Positions 11,412 to 55,281 of a DNA stretch of 64,000 bases are shown in pieces. The notes under the pieces were generated by a model that worked only from the letters and a program-made list of their open reading frames with translations, did no database searches and had not been told where the DNA came from. Position 1 is the stretch's first letter. The number at the start of each line of letters is the position of its first letter. The position numbers and the translations under genes are program-made. The DNA is from an archaeon. Lineage in GTDB: Archaea; Nanobdellota; Nanobdellia; Pacearchaeales; GW2011-AR1. Location of the stretch: assembly GCA_018657525.1 (NCBI GenBank), contig JABHWZ010000003.1, positions 14,840 through 78,839 of the forward strand, read 5' to 3'.

Positions 11412-11434
11412 TTCTCTTTTTCACAATTCGCATT

Positions 11435-11481
11435 CACGCTTAAAAATTTTATTTTTACCTCCGGGATTAAATTTCGCGTAA
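11435..11481. repeat. module F1 (CACGCT..AAATTT..CCTYCGG..AATTTCGCGTAA), copy 1
   Basis: Aligns by eye with 22365..22411 and partly with 32078..32113 (inside polB). Confidence 0.7.
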
Positions 11482-11488
11482 TTGCTCA

Positions 11489-11714
11489 CCCACTATGTAA
11501 TGAATATCTATATATTACAAAAGTTTTATGTTTCGCGAACAAGTCGCTCACTGCATTTTGAAATTATCTAAAGTTTTTCAAAACACAACGTCGGATATAA
11601 AATCCTTGCTGCATTTTGAAATTATCTAAAGTTTTTCAAAACACAAAGGTTCCCTTATAAAACTTTATTTTCACTCCCACTATGTAATGAATATATATAT
11701 TACAAAAGTTTTAT
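11489..11714. repeat. nested direct repeats A-x-B-y-B-z-A
   Basis: A = cccactatgtaatgaatat(ct)atatattacaaaagttttat at 11489-11529 and 11676-11714. B = a 38-nt perfect repeat at 11551-11588 and 11609-11646, separated by 20 nt. Confidence 0.9.
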
Positions 11715-12395: not shown

Positions 12396-12620
12396 GAAAG
12401 ATTATAAATATGGCCTCGATAACCTAAAGGTCACGAGAACCTGTAGGCAGGAGGGATTTAGTCGCTTCGCTCTCAACTTCGCTGAACATCAATTTCGCTA
12501 AAATTGACATAAACCATCGACAACTTCTGTGGAAGTAAAATATTTTTGAATTTCCAAACATTAAAATTTCTTTCAGAAATTGTTATAATCTTTTTGAGAA
12601 AGATTATAAATATGGCCTCG
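12396..12620. repeat. 23-nt perfect direct repeat (tRNA-Lys acceptor 3' strand plus 15 nt of 3' flank) bracketing a 179-nt GC-richer insert
   Basis: gaaagattataaatatggcctcg at 12396-12418 and 12598-12620. The insert starts with module GATAACCTAAAGGTCACGAGAACCTGTAGGCAGGAG. Confidence 0.9.
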
Positions 12621-12687
12621 AAGGGATTTGAACCCTCGACACCCAGATTAAGAGTCTGGTGCTCTGACCAGGCTGAGCTACGAAGCC
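12613..12687 (-). tRNA. tRNA-Lys (anticodon CUU)
   Basis: Hand-folded cloverleaf: GGCTTCG/CGAGGCC acceptor, GCTC/GAGC D stem, CCAGA-CTCTTAA-TCTGG anticodon arm, GAGGG-TTCAAAT-CCCTT T arm. 75 nt. Confidence 0.85.
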
Positions 12688-21772: not shown

Positions 21773-22176
21773 TGGGATTTTTTGACGAAGACGGATTTGG
21801 AATAGAAGAGTTTTTTAAGAATTTTAATGGGGGAGAAAATGTTGCGGAATATACTACTGTTGGTTCAGACGGAAAAAAAAGAACTATGCGAAATACTCCT
21901 AGAAATTCAAAGGGTATTCCTGCGAAGCAGGTTGTTTCTCAAGATGAAGTTTTTTTTATTTTTGATTTTTCTGGAGAAAATAATGTTCATGTTGAAGTTG
22001 GAGATGAGTTAGTTTCTAATAATTATGGGGAAAAAGTTTCAACTGGACAAAAAGTTTTGAATATTAAATCATCTAGTAAAGATTTGGGAAATTTTGTTCT
22101 TTCTAAAAAGATTAAATTAAAAACGCTGGAGTTTACATTTAATAATGGAATCTTGGAGGTAAGTTTTAAAAAATGA
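21772..22176 (+). CDS. small Hsp20/alpha-crystallin-like protein
   Basis: The beta-sandwich-like C-terminal half ends in FNNGILEVSFKK (compare the NGVLxI motif). Sits between the two cdc48 genes with ATGA-type overlaps. Confidence 0.45.
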   Translation: MGFFDEDGFGIEEFFKNFNGGENVAEYTTVGSDGKKRTMRNTPRNSKGIPAKQVVSQDEVFFIFDFSGENNVHVEVGDELVSNNYGEKVSTGQKVLNIKSSSKDLGNFVLSKKIKLKTLEFTFNNGILEVSFKK

Positions 22177-22459
22177 AAAACGGATTAATGTTAGATATTG
22201 TTAAACCTAAAAGACACCCGCTGGTTTCTTTTGAACTTCCTCAAAGCTCGGCTCGGCGATTTCCAATTGCCTCCTGCGAAATCGCAAGGTTGTTAAGACA
22301 CTCGTTGATTTCTTTTGAACTTCCTCAAATATCGGTTCGGCAACATCTTTCAATAACTCAAGTCCACGCTCGTAAATTTGAAATTTGCCTTCGGAAGTTA
22401 ATTTCGCGTAAACTTTCGGCCTCCGAGGAATGTTGTGGGCTTCAACAAGGAGATAGAAA
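22173..22459 (+). repeat. 287-nt composite insert beginning with a diverged copy of the cdc48-2 start; the track ORF 22173..22463 is not considered a real gene
   Basis: ATGAAAAACGGATTAATGTTAGATATTGTT versus ATGAAAAATGGATTGATGTTAGATATTGTT at 22460. Internal 50-nt repeat (22213-22262 and 22297-22346), the GGAGGCAA-loop hairpin, and module F1. Confidence 0.85.
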
Positions 22460-24709
22460 ATGAAAAATGGATTGATGTTAGATATTGTTGAAGCAGAAAA
22501 AGATTATTTTGGGAAAAATGTTGTTACGTTGTCATTTGGTGATATGAAAAGATTAGAAATTGTTTCAGGAGATATTTTAAAAGTTAACGGAGAAAAGGAG
22601 TTATATTTTCGAGCAATTAGAACTAATTCCGAGGAAGGAACTATTGGGATTGATGGAGTAGCTAGATCAGTTATTGGGATTTCTGTTGGGGAAAAAGTTC
22701 GAGTTGAAAAAGCTAAAAAATTAGACAAACTAAAAGGGATTACTCTTTCTATTTTGCCAGATAATAATTATAGCAATGATCAGTTAAAGAGTTTTAATGC
22801 TCAGTTAAAAGAAAATGAATTTTTTAGGAAGGTGTTGATTGATTCTCCATTTACTTTAGGTCAGAAAATTTCTGTTCCAACTAATGTGGGCAATTTGACT
22901 TATGTTGTTTCAAAGTGTTTGCCGAAAAAATGTAGTTCGGGAATTGTTGCGGAAGGTACTCGTGTTGATGTAAGTGAGGAGGTTGGTGAGGGTTCAGGAG
23001 TTAATGTTTATTATGAAGATATTGGAGGGTTAAAAGAAGAGATAGAAAAGGTTAGAGAAATGATTGAGTTCCCAATGAATCATCCAGATATTTTCCAGAA
23101 GTTAGGGATTAGTGCACCGAAGGGAGTTTTGTTGACAGGCCCTCCTGGTACAGGTAAGACTCTTTTAGCGAAAGCTGTTGCAACTGAAACTGATGCTAAG
23201 TTTATTTCAATTGCAGGTCCAGAGATAATGAGTAAGTATCATGGGGGATCTGAAGAAAATTTAAGGGCAAAGTTTGAGGAGGCAGAAAAGAATTCTCCTG
23301 CGATTATTTTTATTGATGAGATCGATGCAATTGCTCCGAAGAGAGGAGAGACTCATGACCAGTCTGAGAAAAGGGTTGTTACTCAGCTTTTGACTTTGAT
23401 GGATGGTTTAAAGTCTCGAGGGCAAGTTGTGGTTATGGCAGCGACAAATCGTCCAGAAGATTTAGATGAGGCTCTTAGGCGGCCAGGAAGATTTGATCGG
23501 GAGTTAAGACTTAATCCTCCTTCTGATGCAGGTAGAAAAGAAATCTTGAAGATTCATACTAGAAATATGCCGTTAGGTAATCGGGAGGAAATTTTGGAAG
23601 AGTTTTCTAATAAGACTCTTGGTTATACTGGAGCTGATTTAGAAGTGCTTTGTAAAGAAGCAGCGCTTCGAGCGGTTAAACCATTTTATGCTAAGTTGGT
23701 GGGGATAGAGGATTCAGAAGAAGAGGCCTCGTCGCTGGATTTAAAGAAACAAGAATTGATTTCTCGGGTTGTTGTAACCAAAGAGCATTTTGATTATGCT
23801 ATGAAAATTGTGGAGCCGTCAGCGATGAGAGAAGTGTTGATTAAAAAACCTAATGTTAAATGGGAAGATATTGGAGGTCTTGAAAAAGCAAAGGATAAAT
23901 TACGTGAATTAGTTGAATTGCCGTTGGTGCGTCCGGATTTATTTGATATGGCTGGGATAAAACCCTCAAAAGGCGTTTTAATCTCTGGAGGACCTGGAAC
24001 GGGGAAGACACTTTTAGCGAAGGCAATTGCAAATGAGGCTAAGGCAAATTTCATTTCAGTAAAAGGACCTGAGCTGATTAGTAAATGGGTTGGTGAATCA
24101 GAAAAGCATGTTAGGGAAATTTTTAAGAAAGCTAGGCAAGTTGCACCAGCAATTATTTTCTTTGATGAGTTTGATTCAATTTCAAAATCTCGGGGGGGAA
24201 GTTTGAATGATTCTTCTGAGAAAGTTGTTAATCAGTTATTGACTGAGCTTGATGGAATTGAAGAGTTGGAAAAAGTTATTGTTATTGCGGCGACTAATCG
24301 GAAGGATTTAATTGATCCTGCTGTTCTTCGTCCTGGGAGAATTGATGCTTTGGTTGAATTAGAGATTCCAGATAAAGATACTCGAAAAAAGATTTTTGAA
24401 GTGCATACTAAGAAAATGCCTTTAGATAAATCTGTTAAATTAGATGAGTATGTTTCTAAGAGTGAAGGTTGGACTGGTGCAGACATTGAGGCTGTTTGTA
24501 GAAATGCTGGGATAAATGCGATTAAGGAAGTTTACAAGTTGGATAGTTCTAAAGGATTTAAAATTACAAAAAAAGATTTTGATTATGGCTTAGAAACTGT
24601 AGCACATTCTTCTGGAAGAGAAATTTTTGTAGATAAAAAGACTGGGAAAATTTCTGGGGCAGGGAAAAAAGGAAATTTAACTGAGAATAAAAAAATTAAG
24701 AAGAAATAA
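22460..24709 (+). CDS. cdc48: Cdc48/VCP-like AAA+ ATPase (paralog 2)
   Basis: Same two-AAA architecture ([16 protein letters not shown]). Confidence 0.95.
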
Positions 24710-30252: not shown

Positions 30253-32871
30253 TTAAAAATCTCCAAGAGTCATTTGTTTTTTGCCCTCGAGAATTTCTTT
30301 GATATTGACATCTAAAACTTGGAAAATATTTTCTACTGCCGGAAGAATTTGTTTGTTCAAATAATATTCAATTTCGTATTCTCCTTTTTCAGTTGGAAGT
30401 TTTACTTTATCTCGTACGAGTTTTACTTTTTTCCCTCCTGTCTCGGCGATGTAATATTCAATTAAATTCCCTTGAGAAACAGGGATTTCTTGTTCTTTCA
30501 TTTTTTTTGCTGCAATCACATGTGGGCCCTGAGCTTTGTATTCTGAGAGGGGTTTTTTCAGTTGGGTTTTAATCATTAATTCTTTTAATTTAATTTCTCT
30601 GTTTTTTATTTTTTTTACAATTTCTTTGATATAAATTAAGGCTTTTTTTTCGTTTCCGTCTTTTAAAACTAACTGGATAATTTTGTTTTGTGTTTTTCTT
30701 GCTAGTTTACACCAGTCTCTTCGAACTGTTTCAAAACCGCGGATTTTTATTTTGTCTTCTTTGTCGATTAAGGCGTATTTCTTTTTCGCACCTGTTGTTC
30801 CTGCGCGAGTTGTTACCCAAAGTCCTTTTTCAAAAAATCCTTCAAGTTCGAGTTCCATTATTCCTGGAAGTTTGGAGTTGATTTGTTTTAGAGTTTCTTT
30901 GACTTCTTTTTTGGTCTTTTCGTTGATTAAAAATGCGATTGAATCTGTGTCAGAGTAAATTGTTTTGTAGCCTTCTTTGTCAATTCCCTTGATTGTGTTT
31001 TTAATGAAGTCGCGACTGATTGCGGTTGCTGCTCCAGAGGCTTCAGGACAATAATATCTTGCGCCGAAAAATCCCATATAACCATAAGATGCGTTTGCTA
31101 AAAGTTTGAAAGCATTGCTTCGCGCTTTTTTTAAAACGTCTGGTTTTTCAAACAGTTCTTTTTTGTATTGTTTTCTTTTTTCAATTATTTCTTTTAATAG
31201 TTCTGGAAAGAAACCTGTTTTTTTTGTGAAGTAAACTTTTTTTCCCAGGACTTCAGCTTCGACGGAATCTTTTTCTTTTTTTTCTAGGAGGGTTGATTTT
31301 GATAAATTAAATGTTACTATTATGCTTGGCCAAAAACTTGTGAAATCAAACATTGCAATGTTTTCGTATAAATTTGGGATTGGTTCGAAGACAAATGCGC
31401 CTTCGTATTTTTCTCTTTCTCTTCTTTCTTGGATTTCTTTGTAGCCTGCTTTTCTTTCTGGAATTTCGTTGAAGCGTTTTAAATTATGTAGAATATAATC
31501 TTCAACATTTGAAGACATTCCTTTCCTTGAGACATCAAAGGGGGGTTCTTGAATTACTCTTGAGAATTCTAAAATGTCTGGCCAGAATTTATTGAATAAC
31601 TGGAATGTTAAGAGTGAATCGTGCAAATTGTATTCATAATATTTCTCCCATTCGTTTTCTTTTATTTTTGAAGAGTGTTTAAATTCAAAGTCTTTTTTTG
31701 TGTCGCCTAAAAATTCTTTTGAAACTTCATTTAGCGAGAGAGTTTCTGATTGCATGTACTGAGAGTATGCGGTTCTGATGAATTTTAATAAGTCAATATG
31801 GGGAATGCCTTTTATTTTGCATTTTAAATCTCTGCCTCCGCCGGTTCTTGAAAATCTTGGTTGTGAGTCGTCGAGTCCTAGGTTTAATTTAATGTTGAAT
31901 TTTTGAGCTCTTGCTTTTATGTAGGGTAAGTCAAAACCGTCTGAATAATATCCTACTAAAAAATCAGGGGAGATTTTTTTTACATATTCAATAAATTTTT
32001 CAATTAGTTCTGCTTCGTCCTCGACATATTCCACTTCATTTGATTTATGTTCTGATGGCTCCTGACCTCGCTCGGAATTTTTATTTTTACCTTCGGAATT
32101 TTTTCTCGCAAAATCACTCGTTTTCCATGTTATAACTTTTTTGAAATTGTCTGAAACTAAAGACACCATAAGAATTTCTCCTTCCCCGATTCCGATTTCA
32201 TCTGTTTCAATATCAAAGGCAAGGGTTTTTGGAGTAAAAGTTTTTTTGATATCCTTTTCTCTAATTTTTTTTATTGTGTTTACTTTTATGCACATATCAA
32301 CATCAAGTGCCATGTCAATGCCTCCGAATTCTTCTGAGTTGTTGAGTAATTCTCCTTCAATTTTATACCAGTTTAGTGGGACTAATTCTTTTTCTATAAT
32401 GTAATGGCTGATATATCCCAAGTCATAGCCTCTTCTTTTGTCAATTTCTGGGAAGTCGATGTGGCTTGCAATGTCGTGCATGTCTTTATAGTTTGTCGCG
32501 AATACTTTTAGGGCCTGGACTTTTTGCCCAAGGAAATTTTTTTCATGTAACTCTACTTTTTCAACTTTTGTTTTTCTGCCTTTTACATCTAATTGAATTT
32601 TAAGAATTTTTTTAGTTATTTTTTCAACACTGCTCAGTGTGCCTTTCTTTGCGGACCGATCGGCATACTCCAAAAAGTTTGAATTCTGGAGCAAGTGCTT
32701 GGGTGTTTTGATTTGAGAAATTTTTGGTTTTAGAATTGCCCAGAGATAAACTGGACATTCATCTATAATGCAAATTTGTTTGCCTGTTTCGTTTCTTCCG
32801 ATGATTCGCGCGTAGTTTCTTCCTTTAAAATCAAAGTAATCGTAGTCAATTGGGATGAATTTTGTTTCCAT
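30253..32871 (-). CDS. polB: family-B DNA polymerase
   Basis: Exo motifs FDIET and YSDGFDLPYI. Pol motifs SFWPSIIV, KLLANASYGY and YSDTDS. C-terminal QMTLGDF is PIP-like. Start at METKFIPIDYDYF; upstream track codons are rejected. Confidence 0.95.
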   Translation of the reverse strand: METKFIPIDYDYFDFKGRNYARIIGRNETGKQICIIDECPVYLWAILKPKISQIKTPKHLLQNSNFLEYADRSAKKGTLSSVEKITKKILKIQLDVKGRKTKVEKVELHEKNFLGQKVQALKVFATNYKDMHDIASHIDFPEIDKRRGYDLGYISHYIIEKELVPLNWYKIEGELLNNSEEFGGIDMALDVDMCIKVNTIKKIREKDIKKTFTPKTLAFDIETDEIGIGEGEILMVSLVSDNFKKVITWKTSDFARKNSEGKNKNSERGQEPSEHKSNEVEYVEDEAELIEKFIEYVKKISPDFLVGYYSDGFDLPYIKARAQKFNIKLNLGLDDSQPRFSRTGGGRDLKCKIKGIPHIDLLKFIRTAYSQYMQSETLSLNEVSKEFLGDTKKDFEFKHSSKIKENEWEKYYEYNLHDSLLTFQLFNKFWPDILEFSRVIQEPPFDVSRKGMSSNVEDYILHNLKRFNEIPERKAGYKEIQERREREKYEGAFVFEPIPNLYENIAMFDFTSFWPSIIVTFNLSKSTLLEKKEKDSVEAEVLGKKVYFTKKTGFFPELLKEIIEKRKQYKKELFEKPDVLKKARSNAFKLLANASYGYMGFFGARYYCPEASGAATAISRDFIKNTIKGIDKEGYKTIYSDTDSIAFLINEKTKKEVKETLKQINSKLPGIMELELEGFFEKGLWVTTRAGTTGAKKKYALIDKEDKIKIRGFETVRRDWCKLARKTQNKIIQLVLKDGNEKKALIYIKEIVKKIKNREIKLKELMIKTQLKKPLSEYKAQGPHVIAAKKMKEQEIPVSQGNLIEYYIAETGGKKVKLVRDKVKLPTEKGEYEIEYYLNKQILPAVENIFQVLDVNIKEILEGKKQMTLGDF
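32622..32672. repeat. hairpin element AACACTGCTCAGTGT..TTTGCGG.., copy inside polB (in frame)
   Basis: Aligns with 39901..39951. Confidence 0.8.
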
Positions 32872-32967
32872 GTTTTGGTAAAAGACTGTAGATTTATATA
32901 TTTGATTGTATTTTTTGTTACCCCTCTTAAATGCTAAATACCAAAGATTTATATAGTCCTGGGCCCT

Positions 32968-33429
32968 ATGAGTAATATGGATACAACTGGTTATTCGGAA
33001 GGATTTCTCTCCAGTGAAGGAGGAGCACTTGTATCTGTTGGTGTCGCAAATCAACCAGATCCTGTTGATTATGATGCTTTGGAAGTAAAATATGGCCGAA
33101 CAAAGGATCAAGAACCTAGCGTTAAAGAATTGATTGATATTTCTGAAGAATCGTGTAGGGGAAGACAAGTACTTTTAGGAGATGAATTTGAGACTCTTGA
33201 AGATAATGCTGAGTTAAGGAAAGCTAGAAATTTATTGGGCAGATGTGATTTTGCTTGGGGTGTTTGGGGCGAAGATACTTGGAGGATATATGGTTTGCCA
33301 GTTCTTAGAGCGGTTGAAAAAGAGTATGGTCTTGCACCTATTAAATCTAGGAAAATTCCTCTTTCAAAGAAACTTTGGATGAGAAGAGATTTTTTAGCTA
33401 ATAAAATAACTGAACTGCAACATCAATAA
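32968..33429 (+). CDS. hypothetical acidic protein
   Basis: 153-aa ORF divergent from polB. No motif. Confidence 0.35.
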   Translation: MSNMDTTGYSEGFLSSEGGALVSVGVANQPDPVDYDALEVKYGRTKDQEPSVKELIDISEESCRGRQVLLGDEFETLEDNAELRKARNLLGRCDFAWGVWGEDTWRIYGLPVLRAVEKEYGLAPIKSRKIPLSKKLWMRRDFLANKITELQHQ

Positions 33430-33468
33430 ATATTTATATTCTGTTTTTCTTAGTTTTATTAATAGAAT

Positions 33469-33561
33469 AAATTTAATCAGCCCAATTCGCTCTCGCTCAT
33501 TTTCCCAACCGCGAGTCCTATTTGCTGAAATTTCATAGAAATTTCAGTTATGAATAAATTT
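33469..33561 (+). mobile_element. MITE-like element A, copy 1 (93 nt, 10-11 nt terminal inverted repeats)
   Basis: AAATTTAATCA...TGAATAAATTT ends, internal CAGCCCAATTCGCTCTCGCTCATTTTCCCAACCGCGAG, and a subterminal hairpin. Confidence 0.75.
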
Positions 33562-33602
33562 ATTAAAAAGTAAAAGGAATAAAATTTAAAAATAAAAATA
33601 AA

Positions 33603-34640: not shown

Positions 34641-34645
34641 GAAAC

Positions 34646-34738
34646 AAATTCAATCAGCCCAATTCGCTCTCGCTCATTTTCCCAACCGCAAACCCTAATT
34701 GTAAAATTTCTTTTAGAAATTTTATTATGATTGAATTT
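34646..34738 (+). mobile_element. MITE-like element A, copy 2
   Basis: AAATTCAATCA...TGATTGAATTT. The first 50 nt are nearly identical to copy 1. Confidence 0.8.
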
Positions 34739-34791
34739 AGAAATTAAATATGGAATAAAAAATAATTGAAATATATTTTACAAAATAAAGT

Positions 34792-41636: not shown

Positions 41637-42055
41637 AAGATTTTGATGACTTTCTAAAAAGAGGGGTGGTTAAAAAACAATCTGTTAATGAGCCAAGAGC
41701 TAAAGATTTGGTTTCTGAAGCTGAAAGAAAATTAAGTTCAATGAATCGTGTTATTAAGAAAATAGGAATTGATGACGCAAATGCTAATGATATTATTGAA
41801 AATTGTTGCGATATTATTCTTAGTTTAATACGTTCGAAAATGTTTTTGAAGGGGTTTAGCGCTTCTGGAAGTGGAGCTCATGAAGCAGAAGTTTCTTTTT
41901 TAAAAAAATTGGAATTTAATGAACAACAAATCGAATTTATTAATTCTTTGAGATATTTTAGGAATGGAATTTTGTATTATGGAAAACGATTTGATAAAGA
42001 ATATGCAAAAAAAGTAGTCAAATTTTTAAAACAGGTAAAGGTTAAATTAAAATGA
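41633..42055 (+). CDS. HEPN-like domain protein (partner of the MNT)
   Basis: 140-aa all-helical protein with a 4-nt overlap with the MNT gene. The R-x4-H position reads FRNGILYY (His replaced by Tyr). Confidence 0.5.
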   Translation: MKDFDDFLKRGVVKKQSVNEPRAKDLVSEAERKLSSMNRVIKKIGIDDANANDIIENCCDIILSLIRSKMFLKGFSASGSGAHEAEVSFLKKLEFNEQQIEFINSLRYFRNGILYYGKRFDKEYAKKVVKFLKQVKVKLK

Positions 42056-42987
42056 GATCTTATAGTGTTTTGGGGAATATAGCGTTGGTTAATTTTCCGA
42101 GGGAATTTAAAGGAAGCAAAATTAATTTTGCTAAGAAAATTTTGAAAGAGAACAAATCAGTTAAGACTGTTTTGGAAAAAGTGGGAAAATTTTCTGGGAG
42201 GTTGAGGAAGATTTCAACTAAATGGTTAGCGGGGGAAAAAAATAAAGAAGTTTTGTATAAAGAAAATAATTGTGTTTTTAGATTTAATATTGATTCAACT
42301 TATTTTTCTCCGAGGCTGAGTAATGAGCGGAAAGAGATTGCAGGATTGGTTAAGAAAGATGAAAATGTTTTAGTTATGTTTGCAGGGGTGTCACCGTTTT
42401 CAATTGTTATTGCGAAGAATTCAAAAATTGGGCGTAGTTCTGCGTACCCTAAATTGCGGAATGCTAAGGTATATTCAAATGAGATAAATCGCGAAGCAAA
42501 TAAATACGCGAAGTTAAATATTGAATTAAATAAATTGAAAGAGAGGGTTGAATTGTTGCCTGGTGATATCAAAAAAGTTACTGAGAAAATTTTGAAGGGG
42601 TGGAGGGAAAACCATGCGGTATCTGTAGGAGGCAAAGAAAAGATGCCGCCCTCTCGTGCCCTTGAGGGTATCAGTGTTTCGAGGAAGGAGCGCGAGGAAA
42701 ACAAGGGGTTGCCTCGCTTTGATGTGATTGTAATGCCGCGACCGCAGTTGAAAGATAGTTTTTTGGAGCAGGCGTTTAAGTTGTCAAAACGCGGAACGCG
42801 AATTTATTATTATGATTTTTGTAAAATTGATGCTCTTGAAGGAACAAAGTATTTTGATTTGATTATTAAGAAGATTAAAGATGAGGCAAAAAAAGCTGGG
42901 AAGAAAATTAGAATTGTGAATAAGAAATTGGCGGGAGATATTGCTCCGTATAAGTATCGTGTGCGGGTTGATTTTATAATTTTGTAA
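42052..42987 (+). CDS. Trm5/Taw22-like tRNA (m1G37) methyltransferase carrying two in-frame repeat insertions
   Basis: YFSPRLSNER, VLVMFAGVSPFSI, YSNEIN, and FDVIVMPRP (NPPY-equivalent). Confidence 0.7.
   Translation: MRSYSVLGNIALVNFPREFKGSKINFAKKILKENKSVKTVLEKVGKFSGRLRKISTKWLAGEKNKEVLYKENNCVFRFNIDSTYFSPRLSNERKEIAGLVKKDENVLVMFAGVSPFSIVIAKNSKIGRSSAYPKLRNAKVYSNEINREANKYAKLNIELNKLKERVELLPGDIKKVTEKILKGWRENHAVSVGGKEKMPPSRALEGISVSRKEREENKGLPRFDVIVMPRPQLKDSFLEQAFKLSKRGTRIYYYDFCKIDALEGTKYFDLIIKKIKDEAKKAGKKIRIVNKKLAGDIAPYKYRVRVDFIIL
42612..42716 (+). repeat. 105-nt structured element, copy 2, in frame inside the Trm5-like CDS
   Basis: Encodes ..HAVSVGGKEKMPPSRALEGISVSRKEREENKGLPR.. between conserved Trm5 motifs. 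Confidence 0.9.
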
Positions 42988-43001
42988 TCTTTTTGTTTTA
43001 T

Positions 43002-43077
43002 ATCGAAGATTTTATCTTCTCGTGTAGTGTACTACACTTCGAAGACACGTTTTACTTTGTAAAATAAAATCTTCGAT
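43002..43077 (+). terminator. long imperfect hairpin just after the Trm5-like stop codon (possible terminator or small RNA)
   Basis: ATCGAAGATTTTAT (43002-43015) pairs with ATAAAATCTTCGAT (43064-43077). Inner palindrome GTGTAGT-GT-ACTACAC. Confidence 0.4.
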
Positions 43078-43149
43078 CTAATTTCAAAAATCTTCACAAA
43101 ATTATGGTGGTATGGGGATAAGGGAAAGAAGGAGAGAGGTTTAGAAAAG

Positions 43150-43158
43150 TTTATAAAA
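43150..43158 (+). promoter_or_regulatory. TATA box (TTTATAAAA)
   Basis: 17 nt before ATG 43176. Confidence 0.4.
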
Positions 43159-43175
43159 TTAATTTACTTATTTTA

Positions 43176-43613
43176 ATGATGACTAAAAAAGAGTATACTC
43201 CTGAGCAAATTGCAGAGAGAATTAAGAATCCTCAAGAAACAAGTGAGGAATATGGGCAGAAAAGTTTTCTTGAGAGGATGATTGCTGATTTATATCGTGG
43301 CCCTTCAGGTGAGGGAGGAGATTCAGAAAAAAGAGAGAAACGTGAGAAGAACTCCCGAATTTATAAATTGCTTTCTATGAAGGCTAGAAGAGATCCTTTG
43401 GATTTCGAGGGAATTTCTAAAGCGTTTAATGAATTAGCTAAAGATCGTCCTTCTTATTTTGCTTTTTTATTTATCTTTTCGCTACTATTTTTGTCCCCTA
43501 ATATGACCGGAAATGCAATCATGGATTTGTCAAATTCTGCTTCGAATTTTTTAGGAATTATTTTTTTCGTTCTAGGATTGATTTTAACTTATGTTTGGGT
43601 TAAAAGAAATTGA
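43176..43613 (+). CDS. hypothetical protein with a C-terminal TM-NMTGNAI-TM module
   Basis: ..FIFSLLFLSPNMTGNAIMD..IIFFVLGLILTYVWVKRN. Confidence 0.4.
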   Translation: MMTKKEYTPEQIAERIKNPQETSEEYGQKSFLERMIADLYRGPSGEGGDSEKREKREKNSRIYKLLSMKARRDPLDFEGISKAFNELAKDRPSYFAFLFIFSLLFLSPNMTGNAIMDLSNSASNFLGIIFFVLGLILTYVWVKRN

Positions 43614-43692
43614 CTTTGGGGTTTAGTCGGGATATGATATCTCGGAGCGCAGCTTGGTCGCCGTTAATTTTGACTGCGGTGGGAGCCTCGCC

Positions 43693-43802
43693 AATTCCCA
43701 ACCCTGATTTTTTTCCCATTACCCCTTTTTTATTTGAAAGCCCCAAAAATCAAAGTTGCTCGCCATGCCAGACACTCCAGCGAATCACAACCGCTTCTTC
43801 AT
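43693..43802 (-). repeat. 110-nt insert at the HerA-like gene 3' end (TTCCCAACCCTGATTTTT...AAAATCAAAGTTGCTC module plus a new 5-codon tail)
   Basis: Bracketed by two copies of the GEAPTAVK-coding 24-mer (43669-43692 and 43803-43826). Confidence 0.85.
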
Positions 43803-45095
43803 TTTGACTGCGGTTGGTGCTTCCCCTCCGTGCCAAGTAAATCTCGGACGAATTCTCATTGGATAAATTCTTTCTGAATTGTCATCTAAAATTATGGCTG
43901 AACCTTTCAGGGTTGGTAAATCATTCATATACTGTTGAATACTATTTAAAAGATAGCTTTGCATAATTTGATTTAGGGCTTCTATGTCGGGTTGAGAAGT
44001 AACTCTGTGTGAAATAACTATATCTGACTGAGTCATAACGTCGGTGTGGATTTTCCCGGGTTGTTGTGTTGCGAGAACTACTGAAATGCCGGGTTGTCGT
44101 CCTTCTCTCAATAATTGAATCAATGCATCTGTTGCCAAAGTTTTTCCTTCTTTGGGTAAAAATTCATGACCCTCGTCGATAAATATCCAAACAAGGGGGT
44201 ATTCTTTTTTTTCTTGCGTCGTTAAAATATCCAACCCTTGTGAAACTGCATTTATTTCTTCTTTTTTTCTTGCGTCCATTCGCTGATTGAAAATTTTTCT
44301 TGAAATTAAACTTATAACTAATGCCCGCACATTAAATGCTCCAACAGAATTGTAAACGCTTAAATCTAAAATGGAAGTCATACCTCGATTTATTAATTCT
44401 GTTACCGCTGTTGGTTTGTCCCCTGATTTTGCAAATACCCCCCATGTGTTCGCTGCTTCGAATAATCCCATTGTTGCATTTTTGGTTTCTTGAGAAGATT
44501 TTTCATCTTTTTCAATTTCAGAAATTATTTCTTCTAAAAAATAATTTCCTTCTTCTTTTAATTTTGTGATTGTTCTTTCGATTAAAACTGCGATTGGATG
44601 AGTTAAGTCTAAGTTAAAAGTTAGAATCCAATCTTCGGGATTCATTTCTGCAATGTCTAGTGCGAATTTTTCGTCGATGGGAATGCCTTTTTCAAGATAT
44701 GAATTAAAATGTCCAGCTGGGACAAAAACTTTTATTGGTAAGTTTTTGGCTTTTAAATCCCATTCTTCTAAAAGTTCCCTATCCTTTTTATTTTGATATT
44801 TCATTGTCCAGTAAATTCCCATTGTGTCAAAAATTAGAGAGGATAAGTTTTGAGAAACTTTTTTTGGTAAGTTTGTAAGTTCTTCTGCTAATGAACCCAA
44901 TGTGTAACTTTTACCTGAACCTCTTTTTCCTGCCACTAGGACAACGTGCGATCTGGCGACGTCCATGAAAATTTTATTTGAAAGAGAAGTGTATTGCCCC
45001 ATTTTTACAAATCCTTTTCCGATATAAATTAAACCTTCTTTTCCAAATGTTTTTTTATCACTTGCATTTCTTCCAAGGATTATATCATAAGCCAT
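43785..45095 (-). CDS. HerA/DUF87-type P-loop ATPase (VirB4/FtsK-HerA superfamily)
   Basis: VLVAGKRGSGKSYTLG Walker A, VWIFIDEGHEF Walker B, and VVLATQQPGKI..SDIVISHRV. Confidence 0.75.
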   Translation of the reverse strand: MAYDIILGRNASDKKTFGKEGLIYIGKGFVKMGQYTSLSNKIFMDVARSHVVLVAGKRGSGKSYTLGSLAEELTNLPKKVSQNLSSLIFDTMGIYWTMKYQNKKDRELLEEWDLKAKNLPIKVFVPAGHFNSYLEKGIPIDEKFALDIAEMNPEDWILTFNLDLTHPIAVLIERTITKLKEEGNYFLEEIISEIEKDEKSSQETKNATMGLFEAANTWGVFAKSGDKPTAVTELINRGMTSILDLSVYNSVGAFNVRALVISLISRKIFNQRMDARKKEEINAVSQGLDILTTQEKKEYPLVWIFIDEGHEFLPKEGKTLATDALIQLLREGRQPGISVVLATQQPGKIHTDVMTQSDIVISHRVTSQPDIEALNQIMQSYLLNSIQQYMNDLPTLKGSAIILDDNSERIYPMRIRPRFTWHGGEAPTAVKMKKRL

Positions 45096-49171: not shown

Positions 49172-49561
49172 TTATTTTCTACAAAGAGAGTGATCGCTTC
49201 TCGCAATTTTAGCAAAGTGTGCTTTTTCTTTGGAAGTTAGGGCTGTTCCAAAGTAAGTTCCCTTTCCATATTCTGTTTCTATTTTTTCTATTCTTGAAAT
49301 GAATTTTTTTATTTGGGGAATTTTGTAAGGTTTTTGAGGAGAGTACGTGGTGCTAGTAAAGAGGATTTTTGTGGAAGTTGTTTGAAGTTGATTTAAAGTG
49401 TTTAAGTGTCTTGTAATATCTTCTTGTGTTTGGGAATTTCTTTGATATTTTTTTCTTCCTTTTGAATCATAGACACTTGTAAATACTATGGGATATCTTT
49501 CTGATATTTCTTGAAGTTTGTTTTCAAGATTTTTTATTGTTTGTAGTTTGAAAAATAGCAT
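49172..49561 (-). CDS. hypothetical protein, paralog of 50317..50733
   Basis: Shares QTIxNLExKLQEISERYP and a ..YSP.K......I..F..R.E.IE...GKG.Y.. pattern with the other copy. Confidence 0.45.
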   Translation of the reverse strand: MLFFKLQTIKNLENKLQEISERYPIVFTSVYDSKGRKKYQRNSQTQEDITRHLNTLNQLQTTSTKILFTSTTYSPQKPYKIPQIKKFISRIEKIETEYGKGTYFGTALTSKEKAHFAKIARSDHSLCRK

Positions 49562-50316: not shown

Positions 50317-50733
50317 TTAATGGCCATATTTTTTATGAAATGCTTCTGTTTCTTCTCTTTCCTCTTCAGGTGTCATGGCTGATATAGAATATGCTCCTTT
50401 TCCTGAAATAGATTCTATTTCTTCAACTCTTCTTACAAATCCTTCTATTCTCATTAATGTTCCTCGTTTCATGGGAGAATATCTTAGTTTGGTTAATGGA
50501 ATTCTTTTTGATTTATCTTTTAATGTCCTTAAAGTTGAAATGTGTTCTTGGATTTCTTGTTGGGTTAGATAATTAAAATGTCCTTTAAAACATTTGTTTT
50601 CTTCTTCATTGGATTTACTCGCTCCTATCTCTTGTGCCAGTTCTATTAAATTTCTTGCTCCCGCTGGATATCTTTCAGATATTTCTTGAAGTTTGCTTTC
50701 AAGATTTTCTATTGTTTGTGGTTTTAAAAACAT
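50317..50733 (-). CDS. hypothetical protein, paralog of 49172..49561
   Basis: See the paralog entry. Confidence 0.45.
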   Translation of the reverse strand: MFLKPQTIENLESKLQEISERYPAGARNLIELAQEIGASKSNEEENKCFKGHFNYLTQQEIQEHISTLRTLKDKSKRIPLTKLRYSPMKRGTLMRIEGFVRRVEEIESISGKGAYSISAMTPEEEREETEAFHKKYGH

Positions 50734-55074: not shown

Positions 55075-55140
55075 TTTTCACCTTATAAATAAATAGGAAA
55101 ATGATTATATAAATGTATTTTAGAAAACGCCCTCGCCGAA

Positions 55141-55281
55141 AAAGTTCCCAACCCTGATTTTTAATTTTATAATTTACTTTCAGGATTTAATTAAAATCAA
55201 AGTTGCTCATCGAACTTATAAAAAGCTTTCTGAATTTACTCCAAAACTCTACGAGTTTAACAGCATTTAACAATGCTGGTT
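55141..55281 (-). repeat. 141-nt insert with the same TTCCCAACCCTGATTTTT...AAAATCAAAGTTGCTC module, bracketed by 14-nt tRNA-Glu 3'-end copies
   Basis: acgccctcgccgaa at 55127-55140 and 55282-55295. Confidence 0.85.

What the first reader, a model, noticed from the sequence alone, without database searches (positions are those of the whole stretch)
43600..43826. HerA-like ATPase: a 110-nt insert supplies a new short C-terminus and displaces an intact 30-codon ancestral tail
The gene now ends ..WHG GEAPTAVK MKKRL*. The GEAPTAVK codons (GGG GAA GCA CCA ACC GCA GTC AAA, 43826..43803) recur at 43692..43669 as GGC GAG GCT CCC ACC GCA GTC AAA, with four consecutive third-position changes. From there the frame stays open for 22 more codons (INGDQAALRDIISRLNPKVNFF*) and ends by overlapping the convergent gene's stop. 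An uninterrupted 30-codon continuation in an AT-rich, stop-rich genome argues that this was the original C-terminus. The insert carries the module TTCCCAACCCTGATTTTT..AAAATCAAAGTTGCTC, which is also found at 55146-55220 beside tRNA-Glu-end repeats.
Basis: partly seen in the sequence, partly recalled or inferred. Interest (0 to 1): 0.8.

Follow-up and report, generated by a model that had tools for sequence, protein, structure and literature searches.

The report
Hairpin cassette that replaces gene ends
The duplicated end of this HerA-like gene is real, but the short tail now in use is the normal one. The duplication was made by a small, apparently undescribed hairpin-containing insert that recurs at gene ends in many tiny (DPANN) archaea and brings its own copy of the gene end it displaces.

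Summary
The eight codons GEAPTAVK recur 134 nt downstream with four third-position changes, and the insert carries a hairpin that is also found at 55.1 kb.

All 120 best HerA homologues end GEAPTA-x-K-xEKRL*, so the present short tail is the family's canonical tail. The 30-codon continuation is not ancestral. It reads through into a second, ~665-nt insertion carrying a 145-aa ORF, and 22 open codons are expected by chance with probability 0.23-0.34.

The same layout occurs downstream of herA in about 14 of 80 related species: tail, stop, short spacer, a mimic of the W-H-G codons, a structured hairpin, then a second full tail. Some loci have stacked arrays.

- Tail copies differ by 66 synonymous and 9 non-synonymous codon changes; neutral expectation is 12 and 55.
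- The hairpin shows strong covariation: 91% of cells paired, and 11 of 14 pairs change on both sides.
- A covariance model finds five copies in this window, all on one strand. One sits in frame inside polB; others sit at duplicated gene or tRNA ends.

Best reading: a small non-autonomous integrated cassette that supplies a replacement gene end. The way it moves is inferred, not shown.

The parts
43785..45095 (-). HerA-like (DUF87) ATPase gene, 436 aa, ending FTWHGGEAPTAVKMKKRL*
   Evidence: ORF. Pfam DUF87, HerA_C and related families. 6284 homologues at E<=1e-10; the 120 best are nearly all 434-437 aa.
43785..43826 (-). Tail 1: the last 13 codons plus stop (GEAPTAVKMKKRL*). This is the functional, canonical tail; its 3' part (AAG AAG CGG TTG TGA) probably came with the module.
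   Evidence: Canonical in 120/120 homologues. The CGG Arg codon is specific to module-bearing tails and pairs with the spacer.
43762..43784 (-). Spacer S plus U' (TTCGCTGGAGTGTC TGGCATGGC). U' mimics the herA W-H-G codons. S is an imperfect inverted copy of U', so the two form a small hairpin.
   Evidence: Conserved as ..CCGGAGTGCC(A)n(T)GGCAYGGY in 14 species. Folds shown.
43693..43761 (-). Hairpin H (GAGCAACTTTGATTTT..loop..AAAATCAGGGTTGGGAATT). The helix is 5'-GGY GA G[10-14 bp]..[ ]Y GA RUU-3' with a tandem G.A.
   Evidence: Covariation. CM R1 scores 58.8 bits, E 6e-14. The sense strand folds 6 kcal/mol better than the antisense strand.
43669..43692 (-). Tail 2: a displaced copy of the first 8 tail codons (GEAPTAVK), cut off after K.
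   Evidence: D12. Complete second tails in relatives.
43600..43668 (-). The 22-codon open continuation INGDQAALRDIISRLNPKVNFF*. It is read-through into the second insertion, not a HerA tail.
   Evidence: No homologue has it. Chance of staying open 0.23-0.34. The sequence is absent from L001.
43004..43668 (.). Second insertion of ~665 nt between herA and the TYW2/Trm5-like gene. It carries a 145-aa ORF (43176..43613, plus strand) with no Pfam match.
   Evidence: In L001, L017 and L103 the TYW2-like gene directly abuts the last herA tail. No Pfam match.
42984..43043 (-). Tentative: a mini hairpin with tandem G.A (43043..43013), followed by a decayed tail-like stretch GAGAAG..AAAAGATTACAA that overlaps the end of the TYW2-like gene. 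This may be the resident tail.
   Evidence: Read by eye. The sequence is A-rich, so the similarity is weak. Inferred.
42052..42987 (+). Convergent TYW2/Trm5-like methyltransferase gene. In module-free relatives its stop codon is the complement of, or directly abuts, the last herA Leu codon.
   Evidence: Pfam families listed. Sequences.
55137..55217 (-). Second H copy, with the same stems and a different loop. It lies between two copies of the tRNA-Glu 3' end (55283-55295 and 55129-55141) and is preceded by a T-loop mimic, AAGTTCGAT.
   Evidence: R1 66.9 bits, E 3e-16. Sequences. tRNA-Glu.
32051..32128 (-). H copy inside the polB ORF: 63 nt, 21 codons, in frame, with no duplication.
   Evidence: R1 49.3 bits. 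ORF. The insert is absent from 14 of 15 aligned homologues.
22349..22426 (-). H copy nested in another repeat (E2), within a 287-nt insert between duplicated 5' ends of the cdc48-like gene.
   Evidence: R1 50.3 bits. D8 and D9. Sequences and ORFs.
11419..11496 (-). Intergenic H copy, placed directly after the second copy of a ~50-nt local duplication.
   Evidence: R1 44.3 bits. D11 and D15. Sequence.

Best explanation
The herA gene still has the normal short tail of its family.

**What sits behind it.** Downstream lies a small, non-coding, non-autonomous inserted cassette built as [replacement tail + stop]-[spacer S]-[U', a mimic of the W-H-G codons]-[structured hairpin H]. It lies just upstream of the older tail copy, which it has pushed out of the gene.

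**How it most likely got there (inferred).** The cassette, or its ancestor, entered as a small circular or linear DNA. It recombined with the chromosome within the ~42 nt of tail homology, in a Campbell-type single crossover. The crossover point varies between species. The gene therefore stays intact, and the two tails carry the synonymous differences that had built up between two herA lineages.

**What happened next in this window (inferred).** The displaced copy was later cut after its eighth codon by a second, ~665-nt insertion. The '30-codon tail' is read-through into that DNA.

**What is shown.**
- H is a genuine repeated, structure-conserved element.
- It folds well only on the herA-sense strand.
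- It recurs at duplicated ends of other genes and tRNAs.
- It can also sit in frame inside a protein gene (polB).

**What is not shown.** The mover is unknown; it could be host homologous recombination, a Xer-like or other recombinase acting in trans, or a single-stranded intermediate. The role of H is also unknown.
For: **The short tail is canonical.** All 120 best homologues have it.

**The architecture recurs.** It is found in L001, L005, L008, L015, L038, L042, L051, L053, L058, L076, L079 and L104; L077 has a partial copy. The distribution on the herA tree is patchy, with close relatives that have empty sites: L017, L041/L024/L039 and L103.

**Both tail copies bear the mark of purifying selection.** They differ by 66 synonymous and 9 non-synonymous codons. 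A neutral simulation gives 12 and 55, and 0 of 2000 runs were as extreme. The stop codon is kept in place.

**Tail types are swapped between sister species.** The 3' 28 nt of L008 tail 1 match L015 tail 2 at 96%. The two species carry different hairpin subfamilies. This fits independent insertions with a variable crossover point.

**The resident flank follows the second tail in L015.** Compare with L024.

**Tail 1 belongs with the module.** The CGG codon of tail 1 pairs with the spacer across the stop codon, and it is specific to module-bearing genomes.

**Cassettes stack.** L076 and L104 carry several different hairpin units.

**H is a real structure.**
- Covariation: 91% of cells paired, against 69% in shuffles and 32-42% in slid controls; 11 of 14 pairs change on both sides.
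- CM R1 finds three further copies in the window that were not in the training set, at 44-50 bits. The next best hit scores 13 bits.
- The sense strand is more stable than the antisense strand in 15 of 16 copies.

**The same design occurs at tRNA ends.** It is seen at tRNA-Tyr (L100) and tRNA-Glu.
Against: - No integrase, transposase or HUH enzyme was found in about 40 of the 50 window ORFs of at least 150 aa. The cassettes are far too small to encode one.
- A 130-bp double-stranded circle is an awkward recombination substrate.
- There is no constant identical core between the two tails. In L042 and L051 the longest shared run is 5 nt. Classical site-specific att recombination is therefore not supported.
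- The model does not explain why a hairpin should split the mimic of the target (U'-H-V').
- The model does not explain how cassettes tailored to several different targets arise within one genome.
- No free or excised form was seen, and viral contigs hold nothing similar.
- Which tail is 'resident' cannot be decided for the window itself.
Confidence: 0.55

Rival explanations
1. One reading: the long ..KINGDQAALRDIISRLNPKVNFF* tail is the ancestral HerA C-terminus, and the 110-nt insert replaced it with a novel short tail.
For: The frame is open for 22 codons after the second GEAPTAVK and ends on the convergent gene's stop.
Against: - All 120 homologues end with the short xEKRL-type tail, and none has an INGDQAAL-like extension.
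- Second copies in relatives are complete canonical tails.
- The sequence after K belongs to a 665-nt segment missing from L001.
- The open frame is expected by chance at 0.23-0.34.
Confidence: 0.03
2. Intermediate-tail variant. The 665-nt element integrated first into the functional tail, so HerA for a time ended ..GEAPTAVK+INGDQ..FF*. The hairpin cassette then integrated upstream and restored a canonical tail.
For: - In stacked arrays the unit next to the gene is plausibly the newest (L076, L104).
- The frame is open to a stop.
- A hairpin plus a tail-like remnant sits at the far end of the 665-nt segment.
Against: - The open frame is unremarkable statistically.
- Recombination could just as well have hit the already displaced copy.
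- No relative shows such a tail in use.
Confidence: 0.1
3. A purely local event. The herA end was tandemly duplicated within each genome, for example by slippage provoked by the hairpin. H inserted into, or was tolerated only in, the spare copy. No horizontally moving cassette is involved.
For: - In L053, L058 and L079 the tails are 41-42/42 identical and share genome-specific residues.
- H can insert on its own without any duplication, as in polB and in the E2 loop.
- The window is rich in local duplications.
Against: - A neutral spare copy should gather non-synonymous changes and lose its stop. Observed: 66 synonymous against 9 non-synonymous changes, with stops kept.
- The spacer S is conserved across species yet unrelated to each genome's own downstream sequence.
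- Tail types are swapped in L008 and L015.
- The CGG signature is shared by tail 1 of unrelated hosts.
Confidence: 0.17
4. An RNA-level device. H, or the whole stretch from tail 1 to H, is an intron or bypass element, so that tail 2 is translated in some mRNAs. That would explain why both tails stay coding.
For: - Both tails are under coding constraint.
- H folds only on the sense strand and would be co-transcribed with herA.
- Removing GAG..RTT joins W-H-G to G-E-A-P in frame.
Against: - No herA among about 90 loci carries H alone. That would be tolerated if H were spliced.
- No bulge-helix-bulge or K-turn geometry fits (inspection).
- Insert lengths fall in all three phases.
- In the window tail 2 is truncated with no visible harm, and in L038 it starts with a stop.
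- H lies antisense to cdc48 and to its neighbours at 11.4 kb.
Confidence: 0.08
5. Assembly artefact: two strain variants of the herA end were joined in tandem by the assembler.
For: In several MAGs runs of N sit exactly at this repeat (L058, L066, L079, L080). Assemblers evidently struggle with it.
Against: - The sequence is identical in independent assemblies from different samples.
- The same ordered architecture, with a covarying hairpin, occurs in about 14 species.
Confidence: 0.02

Closest known systems
Integrative elements that target the 3' end of a tRNA or protein gene and carry a replacement copy of that end (attL/attR direct repeats), including the accretion arrays left at archaeal tRNA genes
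   Same: - Direct repeats of the gene end flank the insert, and the gene is restored.
- Repeated hits at the same site build arrays.
- The same design is seen here at tRNA-Glu, tRNA-Gln, tRNA-Lys and tRNA-Tyr.
- Single small genes lie between repeats (MTase ORF, 145-aa ORF).
   Different: - The inserts are only ~90-290 nt and encode nothing.
- No integrase is in sight.
- The two tails share no constant identical core.
- The downstream copy of the target is split by a structured hairpin.
- Targets include the 5' end of a protein gene (cdc48).
Rickettsia palindromic elements (RPEs) and other intragenic MITEs (reviewed in PMC10969869)
   Same: A short, palindromic, multicopy, non-coding element is found in frame inside an essential protein gene. 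Here it is in polB, 21 codons in a surface loop.
   Different: - The stems covary rather than being conserved terminal inverted repeats.
- No target-site duplication at simple insertions.
- Most copies sit at duplicated gene ends rather than inside ORFs.
Integron attC sites and the CTX-phage attP(+) folded single-stranded hairpin sites
   Same: - A structure-conserved, sequence-variable, strand-specific hairpin of 55-70 nt.
- Units stack head to tail at one junction next to a fixed site (L076, L104).
- S and U' form a small duplex copy of the target arm.
   Different: - The integron core sites RYYYAAC and GTTRRRY are absent.
- No IntI or Xer link has been shown.
- These cassettes carry a long copy of the target (13-42 nt), which integron cassettes do not.
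REP/PATE hairpins mobilised by IS200/IS605-type (Y1 HUH) transposases
   Same: - Strand-specific hairpins.
- No target duplication at simple insertions.
- Frequent location just behind genes.
- All five window copies lie on one strand.
   Different: - No TnpA/RAYT gene was found in the window.
- H is longer and has a tandem G.A motif and a conserved apical mini-stem.
- REPs do not come with gene-end duplicates.

Membership tests
HerA/DUF87 ATPase (the host gene) | DUF87/HerA central P-loop domain | tested here: met
   Pfam PF01935 at E 3.8e-12, plus HerA_C, FtsK-like and TrwB-like hits. Precomputed domains of homologues agree.
Site-specific integrative element (tyrosine-recombinase type) | Direct repeats of the target end flank the insert, and the target gene is restored | tested here: met
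   herA tails. tRNA-Glu, tRNA-Gln, tRNA-Lys and tRNA-Tyr ends.
Site-specific integrative element (tyrosine-recombinase type) | An identical core (overlap region) shared by attL and attR | tested here: not met
   The longest identical run between tails is 5 nt in L042 and L051, and its position varies in the others. It is 13-24 nt and exact at the tRNA sites.
Site-specific integrative element (tyrosine-recombinase type) | An integrase gene in the element or nearby | tested here: not met
   No recombinase family among about 40 window ORFs. The rest of the genome could not be tested.
MITE | Conserved terminal inverted repeats and a fixed-length target-site duplication | tested here: not met
   The stems differ between copies and covary. 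No duplication at the polB or E2-loop insertions.
MITE | Multicopy, short and non-coding | tested here: met
   Five copies in 64 kb. Copies found in about 15 genomes.
Integron attC | Core sites R'' RYYYAAC and R' GTTRRRY at the base of an imperfect hairpin | tested here: not met
   The base of H is GGYGAG..YGARTT on one strand and AAYTCR..CTCRCC on the other. Only some copies read GTTGGAG at the 3' edge.
Archaeal bulge-helix-bulge intron | Two 3-nt bulges separated by a 4-bp helix at the exon-intron borders | tested here: not met
   No such pairing could be drawn at any boundary (inspection). No herA carries H alone.
Known RNA families (Rfam 15) | A match to a curated covariance model | tested here: not met
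   Only tRNAs reach threshold in the window. Nothing overlaps H even at E<=10.
Diversity-generating retroelement (TR/VR pair) | Differences confined to adenines of the template repeat, with a reverse transcriptase nearby | tested here: not met
   The differences are synonymous third-position changes of all kinds. No RT was found.
REP/PATE (IS200/IS605-related) | A Y1 HUH transposase (TnpA/RAYT) in the genome | not testable with these tools
   None was found in the window. The rest of the genome is not available.

The most novel reading that the evidence does not exclude
H and its flanks (S-U'-H-V) may be a new kind of folded-hairpin recombination module, working somewhat like attC or CTX attP(+). 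On that reading, extruding the hairpin brings a split mimic of the target together. Tiny cassettes could then integrate, strand-specifically and repeatedly, into the very ends of essential genes (herA, cdc48, tRNAs) of ultrasmall archaea while supplying a working replacement end. That would amount to a gene-end 'integron' without a known integrase.
Probability: 0.2. Interest if true: 0.85.

Novelty: new variant of a known kind. Interest (0 to 1): 0.62.

Why it matters
If the reading is right, DPANN archaea with very small genomes carry a family of miniature, structured insertion cassettes that live at, and even inside, essential genes without breaking them. They do so by carrying a spare copy of the gene end.

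- **Annotation.** It explains tandem pseudo-ends, spurious ORFs such as the 48-aa and 96-aa ones here, and N-gaps in MAGs at these sites.
- **Horizontal exchange.** It offers a marker for gene flow between uncultured lineages, because the tails are imported.
- **Method.** It gives a concrete, searchable RNA/DNA motif (model R1) for finding the enzyme that moves these cassettes.
- **A caution.** An open frame after a duplicated gene end need not be an ancestral tail.

Tried and rejected
- **Rfam.** Searches of the window and both hairpin regions found nothing but tRNAs.
- **Viral contigs.** The 18-mer loop gave only chance hits in coding sequence, and the herA-module pattern gave none.
- **Metagenome scan.** The single scan, with the window-type stems, returned one locus (L100). 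That locus was informative but gave no genome-wide census.
- **Bulge-helix-bulge, K-turn and C/D-box readings of the hairpin base.** All rejected. The covariation supports GGY pairing with RUU in a continuous helix with a tandem G.A, not a 3-nt bulge.
- **Integron attC and DGR.** The defining sequence features are absent.
- **Gene-60-style translational bypass.** Unnecessary, because tail 1 is complete and ends in a stop.
- **Homologues of the 214-aa methyltransferase-like ORF.** None in the database, so its original C-terminus could not be judged.
- **Recombinase hunt by Pfam in the window.** Negative.
- **Insertion in the polB of P0122.** Model R1 does not match it. It turned out to be a different repeat family, E2.
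- **'Third tails' in L058 and L079.** They flank runs of N and were set aside as probable scaffold artefacts.
- **Literature searches.** No description of such elements was found.
Full report
**1. The observation**

On the minus strand, the HerA-like gene (43785..45095; DUF87/HerA domains) ends ..TWHG GEAPTAVK MKKRL*. The 24 bases coding GEAPTAVK (43826..43803) recur at 43692..43669. Twelve bases are identical, and the four differences all fall on third codon positions (D12). From there the frame runs 22 more codons to a stop at 43600.

Both halves of the hairpin in the intervening 110 nt recur exactly at 55145-55208. Three independent assemblies shown from the 24 contigs that carry the same protein have the same sequence with 0-1 differences per kb.

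**2. Which tail is ancestral**

I searched with a protein carrying the long tail. It found 6284 relatives, and the 120 best (74-84% identical) are almost all 434-437 aa. Every one ends GEAPTA[VI]K-xEK[RK]L or a near variant, and none continues with INGDQAAL.

From local base composition, the 22-codon open frame is expected by chance with probability 0.23-0.34.

**3. The arrangement recurs**

In the closest relative (L001, 84% identical) herA ends GEAPTAIKAEKSL*. It is followed by 86 nt containing a similar hairpin, and then by a second, complete tail with its own stop, GEAPTAIKAKNRL*.

About 80 species-level genomes were scanned. The same order occurs in L005, L008, L015, L038, L042, L051, L053, L058, L076, L079 and, in part, L077, and also in L104. 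The order is: tail 1, stop, spacer S, U' (..RTGCC(A)n(T)GGCAYGGY, a mimic of the W-H-G codons), hairpin H (GAG..YGARTT), tail 2.

- L076 and L104 carry two or three different hairpin units in series.
- The 'third tails' of L058 and L079 flank runs of N and are probably scaffold artefacts.
- On a herA distance tree the trait is patchy. The window, L001 and L076 form one positive clade. Elsewhere positive species have close negative sisters: L005/L017, L058/L041-L024-L039, and the empty site in L103.

**4. The two tails**

Over eleven comparisons the tail copies differ at 85 bases, 71 of them at third positions. That gives 66 synonymous and 9 non-synonymous codon differences, and the stop stays in place. 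A neutral simulation gives 12 and 55, and none of 2000 runs was as extreme.

Both copies therefore spent most of their divergence as working HerA tails. The simplest account is that they come from different herA lineages: one tail arrived with the insert.

- In L015 the second tail matches the single tail of the module-free relative L024 (27/30 against 22/30), and the resident flank follows it.
- In its sister L008 the order is reversed. The 3' 28 nt of L008 tail 1 are 96% identical to L015 tail 2, and the hairpin belongs to another subfamily.
- A fixed cut site does not explain this. Recombination anywhere within the ~42 nt of homology does.
- The Arg codon of tail 1 in '..KRL*' is CGG in 3 of 4 module-bearing genomes, but AGR in all 28 Arg codons at that place among module-free tails. 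CGG pairs with the CCG of the spacer across the stop codon. The 3' part of tail 1 therefore belongs to the module.

**5. The window's own history**

In L001, L017 and L103 the last herA tail abuts or overlaps the end of the convergent TYW2/Trm5-like gene. In the window, ~665 nt lie between the eighth codon of tail 2 and that gene. This stretch includes a 145-aa ORF with no Pfam match.

The 'INGDQAAL..' codons are the first bases of that segment. At its far end sit a small hairpin with a tandem G.A and an A-rich stretch (GAGAAG..AAAAGATTACAA) that may be the decayed resident tail. This last point is tentative.

**6. The hairpin**

I anchored 15 hairpins on the invariant GAG and YGAR. The helix 5'-GGY GA G[10 bp]..[10 bp]Y GA RUU-3' is paired in 91% of cells, against 69% in shuffles and 32-42% with slid partners. 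Eleven of 14 pairs change on both sides.

- The sense strand folds 5-9 kcal/mol better than the antisense strand in 15 of 16 copies, because of U.G pairs.
- About half the copies share an apical motif AUYC-CY RAA RG-UAAA, whose mini-stem covaries.
- Rfam has no match.

A covariance model (R1) finds five copies in the window at 44-67 bits; the next hit scores 13 bits. All five are on the minus strand.

| Copy | Context |
|---|---|
| 43.7 kb | herA tail duplication |
| 55.1 kb | Between two copies of the 3' end of an intron-containing tRNA-Glu(CUC) |
| 32.1 kb | Inside polB as 21 in-frame codons, in a loop where 14 of 15 homologues have nothing |
| 22.4 kb | Nested in another repeat (E2), within a 287-nt insert between duplicated 5' ends of the cdc48-like gene; those ends again differ only synonymously |
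| 11.4 kb | Behind the second copy of a 50-nt local duplication |

A metagenome contig (L100) has the same stems behind an intron-containing tRNA-Tyr. There the hairpin is preceded by a T-loop mimic and followed by a duplicate of the tRNA 3' end.

The general layout is U-V-S-U'-H-V'. The gene end (U-V) is intact, and a second copy of it is split by the hairpin.

**7. Mechanism**

*Shown:*
- The insert exists and recurs.
- It restores the gene end.
- H is structurally constrained.
- It appears in several contexts.

*Inferred:*
- The unit [V-S-U'-H] moves as a whole. It integrates by recombination within V, and new units stack at the gene-proximal side.
- H is probably not an intron. No herA among about 90 loci carries H alone, which would be harmless if H were spliced. 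No bulge-helix-bulge geometry fits, and H is antisense to some neighbouring genes.

*Unknown:*
- The enzyme that moves the unit. No recombinase was found in about 40 of the 50 window ORFs of at least 150 aa.
- Whether the intermediate is double- or single-stranded.
- Why the hairpin splits the target mimic.

**8. Comparison with what is known**

It works like the classical integrative elements that carry a replacement 3' end of their target gene, and the tRNA sites here look like ordinary accretion arrays. It fails that family's tests for a constant core and for an integrase.

- It shares in-frame residence in a protein gene with the Rickettsia palindromic elements (PMC10969869).
- It shares structure-not-sequence conservation and stacking with integron attC sites, but lacks their core sites.
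- I found no description of such modules.

**9. Verdict**

The underlying object is a new variant of a known kind and of more general interest than the single gene. The mechanism remains open.

Noticed in passing
window 32051-32128 (minus), inside polB ORF 30253..33168: A hairpin H copy of 63 nt sits in frame in the family B DNA polymerase, between the ExoI and ExoII motifs, and adds 21 hydrophilic residues. A homologue (P0122, L101) has a different repeat (E2) in the same loop.
   Followed up: partly
window 22167-22499: The first ~10 codons of the cdc48-like AAA ATPase are duplicated 287 nt apart (85% identical, with synonymous differences). The insert holds two E2 repeats and one H. A stop-free 96-aa ORF runs through it and ends ATGA on the real start codon.
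   Followed up: partly
window 56106-56297 (minus): tRNA-Glu(CUC) with a 117-nt intron. Default ARAGORN and Rfam both missed it; ARAGORN finds it once introns are allowed.
   Followed up: yes
window 56034-56130 and 56435-56507 (minus): Behind tRNA-Glu and tRNA-Gln, the tRNA 3' end is repeated after a short module. The module is an inverted copy of the T-loop, a T-loop mimic, and a 32-nt 'X' element (GGCACRAGAACCTGAGGACAGGAT) that occupies the hairpin's place.
   Followed up: partly
window 55280-55924 (minus): A 214-aa methyltransferase-like ORF lies between two copies of the tRNA-Glu 3' end, like a single-gene cargo. It has no homologue other than itself in the protein collection.
   Followed up: partly
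window 12396-12419 and 12598-12621: The 3' end of tRNA-Lys(CUU) plus its trailer (24 nt, identical) is duplicated 202 nt downstream. The insert between the copies is not matched by model R1.
   Followed up: no
window 33466-33562 and 34643-34739: Direct repeats of 97 nt (77% identical) flank the FEN1 (XPG) gene exactly. On the minus strand they contain GAGCGAGAGCGAATTGG, which looks like a hairpin base without a stem.
   Followed up: no
window 11551-11588 and 11609-11646: Two perfect copies of a 38-nt palindromic unit (..TTTTGAAAAACTTTAGATAATTTCAAAATGCAG..) lie 58 nt apart in the spacer of the 11.4-kb module. They occur nowhere else in the window.
   Followed up: partly
window, all five H copies: All five H copies lie on the minus strand whatever the orientation of the neighbouring genes, in a window whose GC skew is positive throughout. 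This hints at a strand-specific process but is not significant on its own.
   Followed up: no
L058, L066, L079, L080 at the herA stop: Runs of N sit exactly at the tail repeat in four MAGs. The duplication probably breaks short-read assemblies.
   Followed up: no
window 49491-49555 / 50666-50730 and 58140-58275 / 58325-58460: Further local direct repeats: 65 nt at 92% identity, 1175 nt apart, and 136 nt at 83% identity, 185 nt apart. Their nature is unknown.
   Followed up: no
polB homologues P0121-P0203: Most database homologues of the polB N-terminal region are called as 300-490-aa fragments, and L101 has polB in two ORFs. polB may be split or interrupted in many of these genomes.
   Followed up: no
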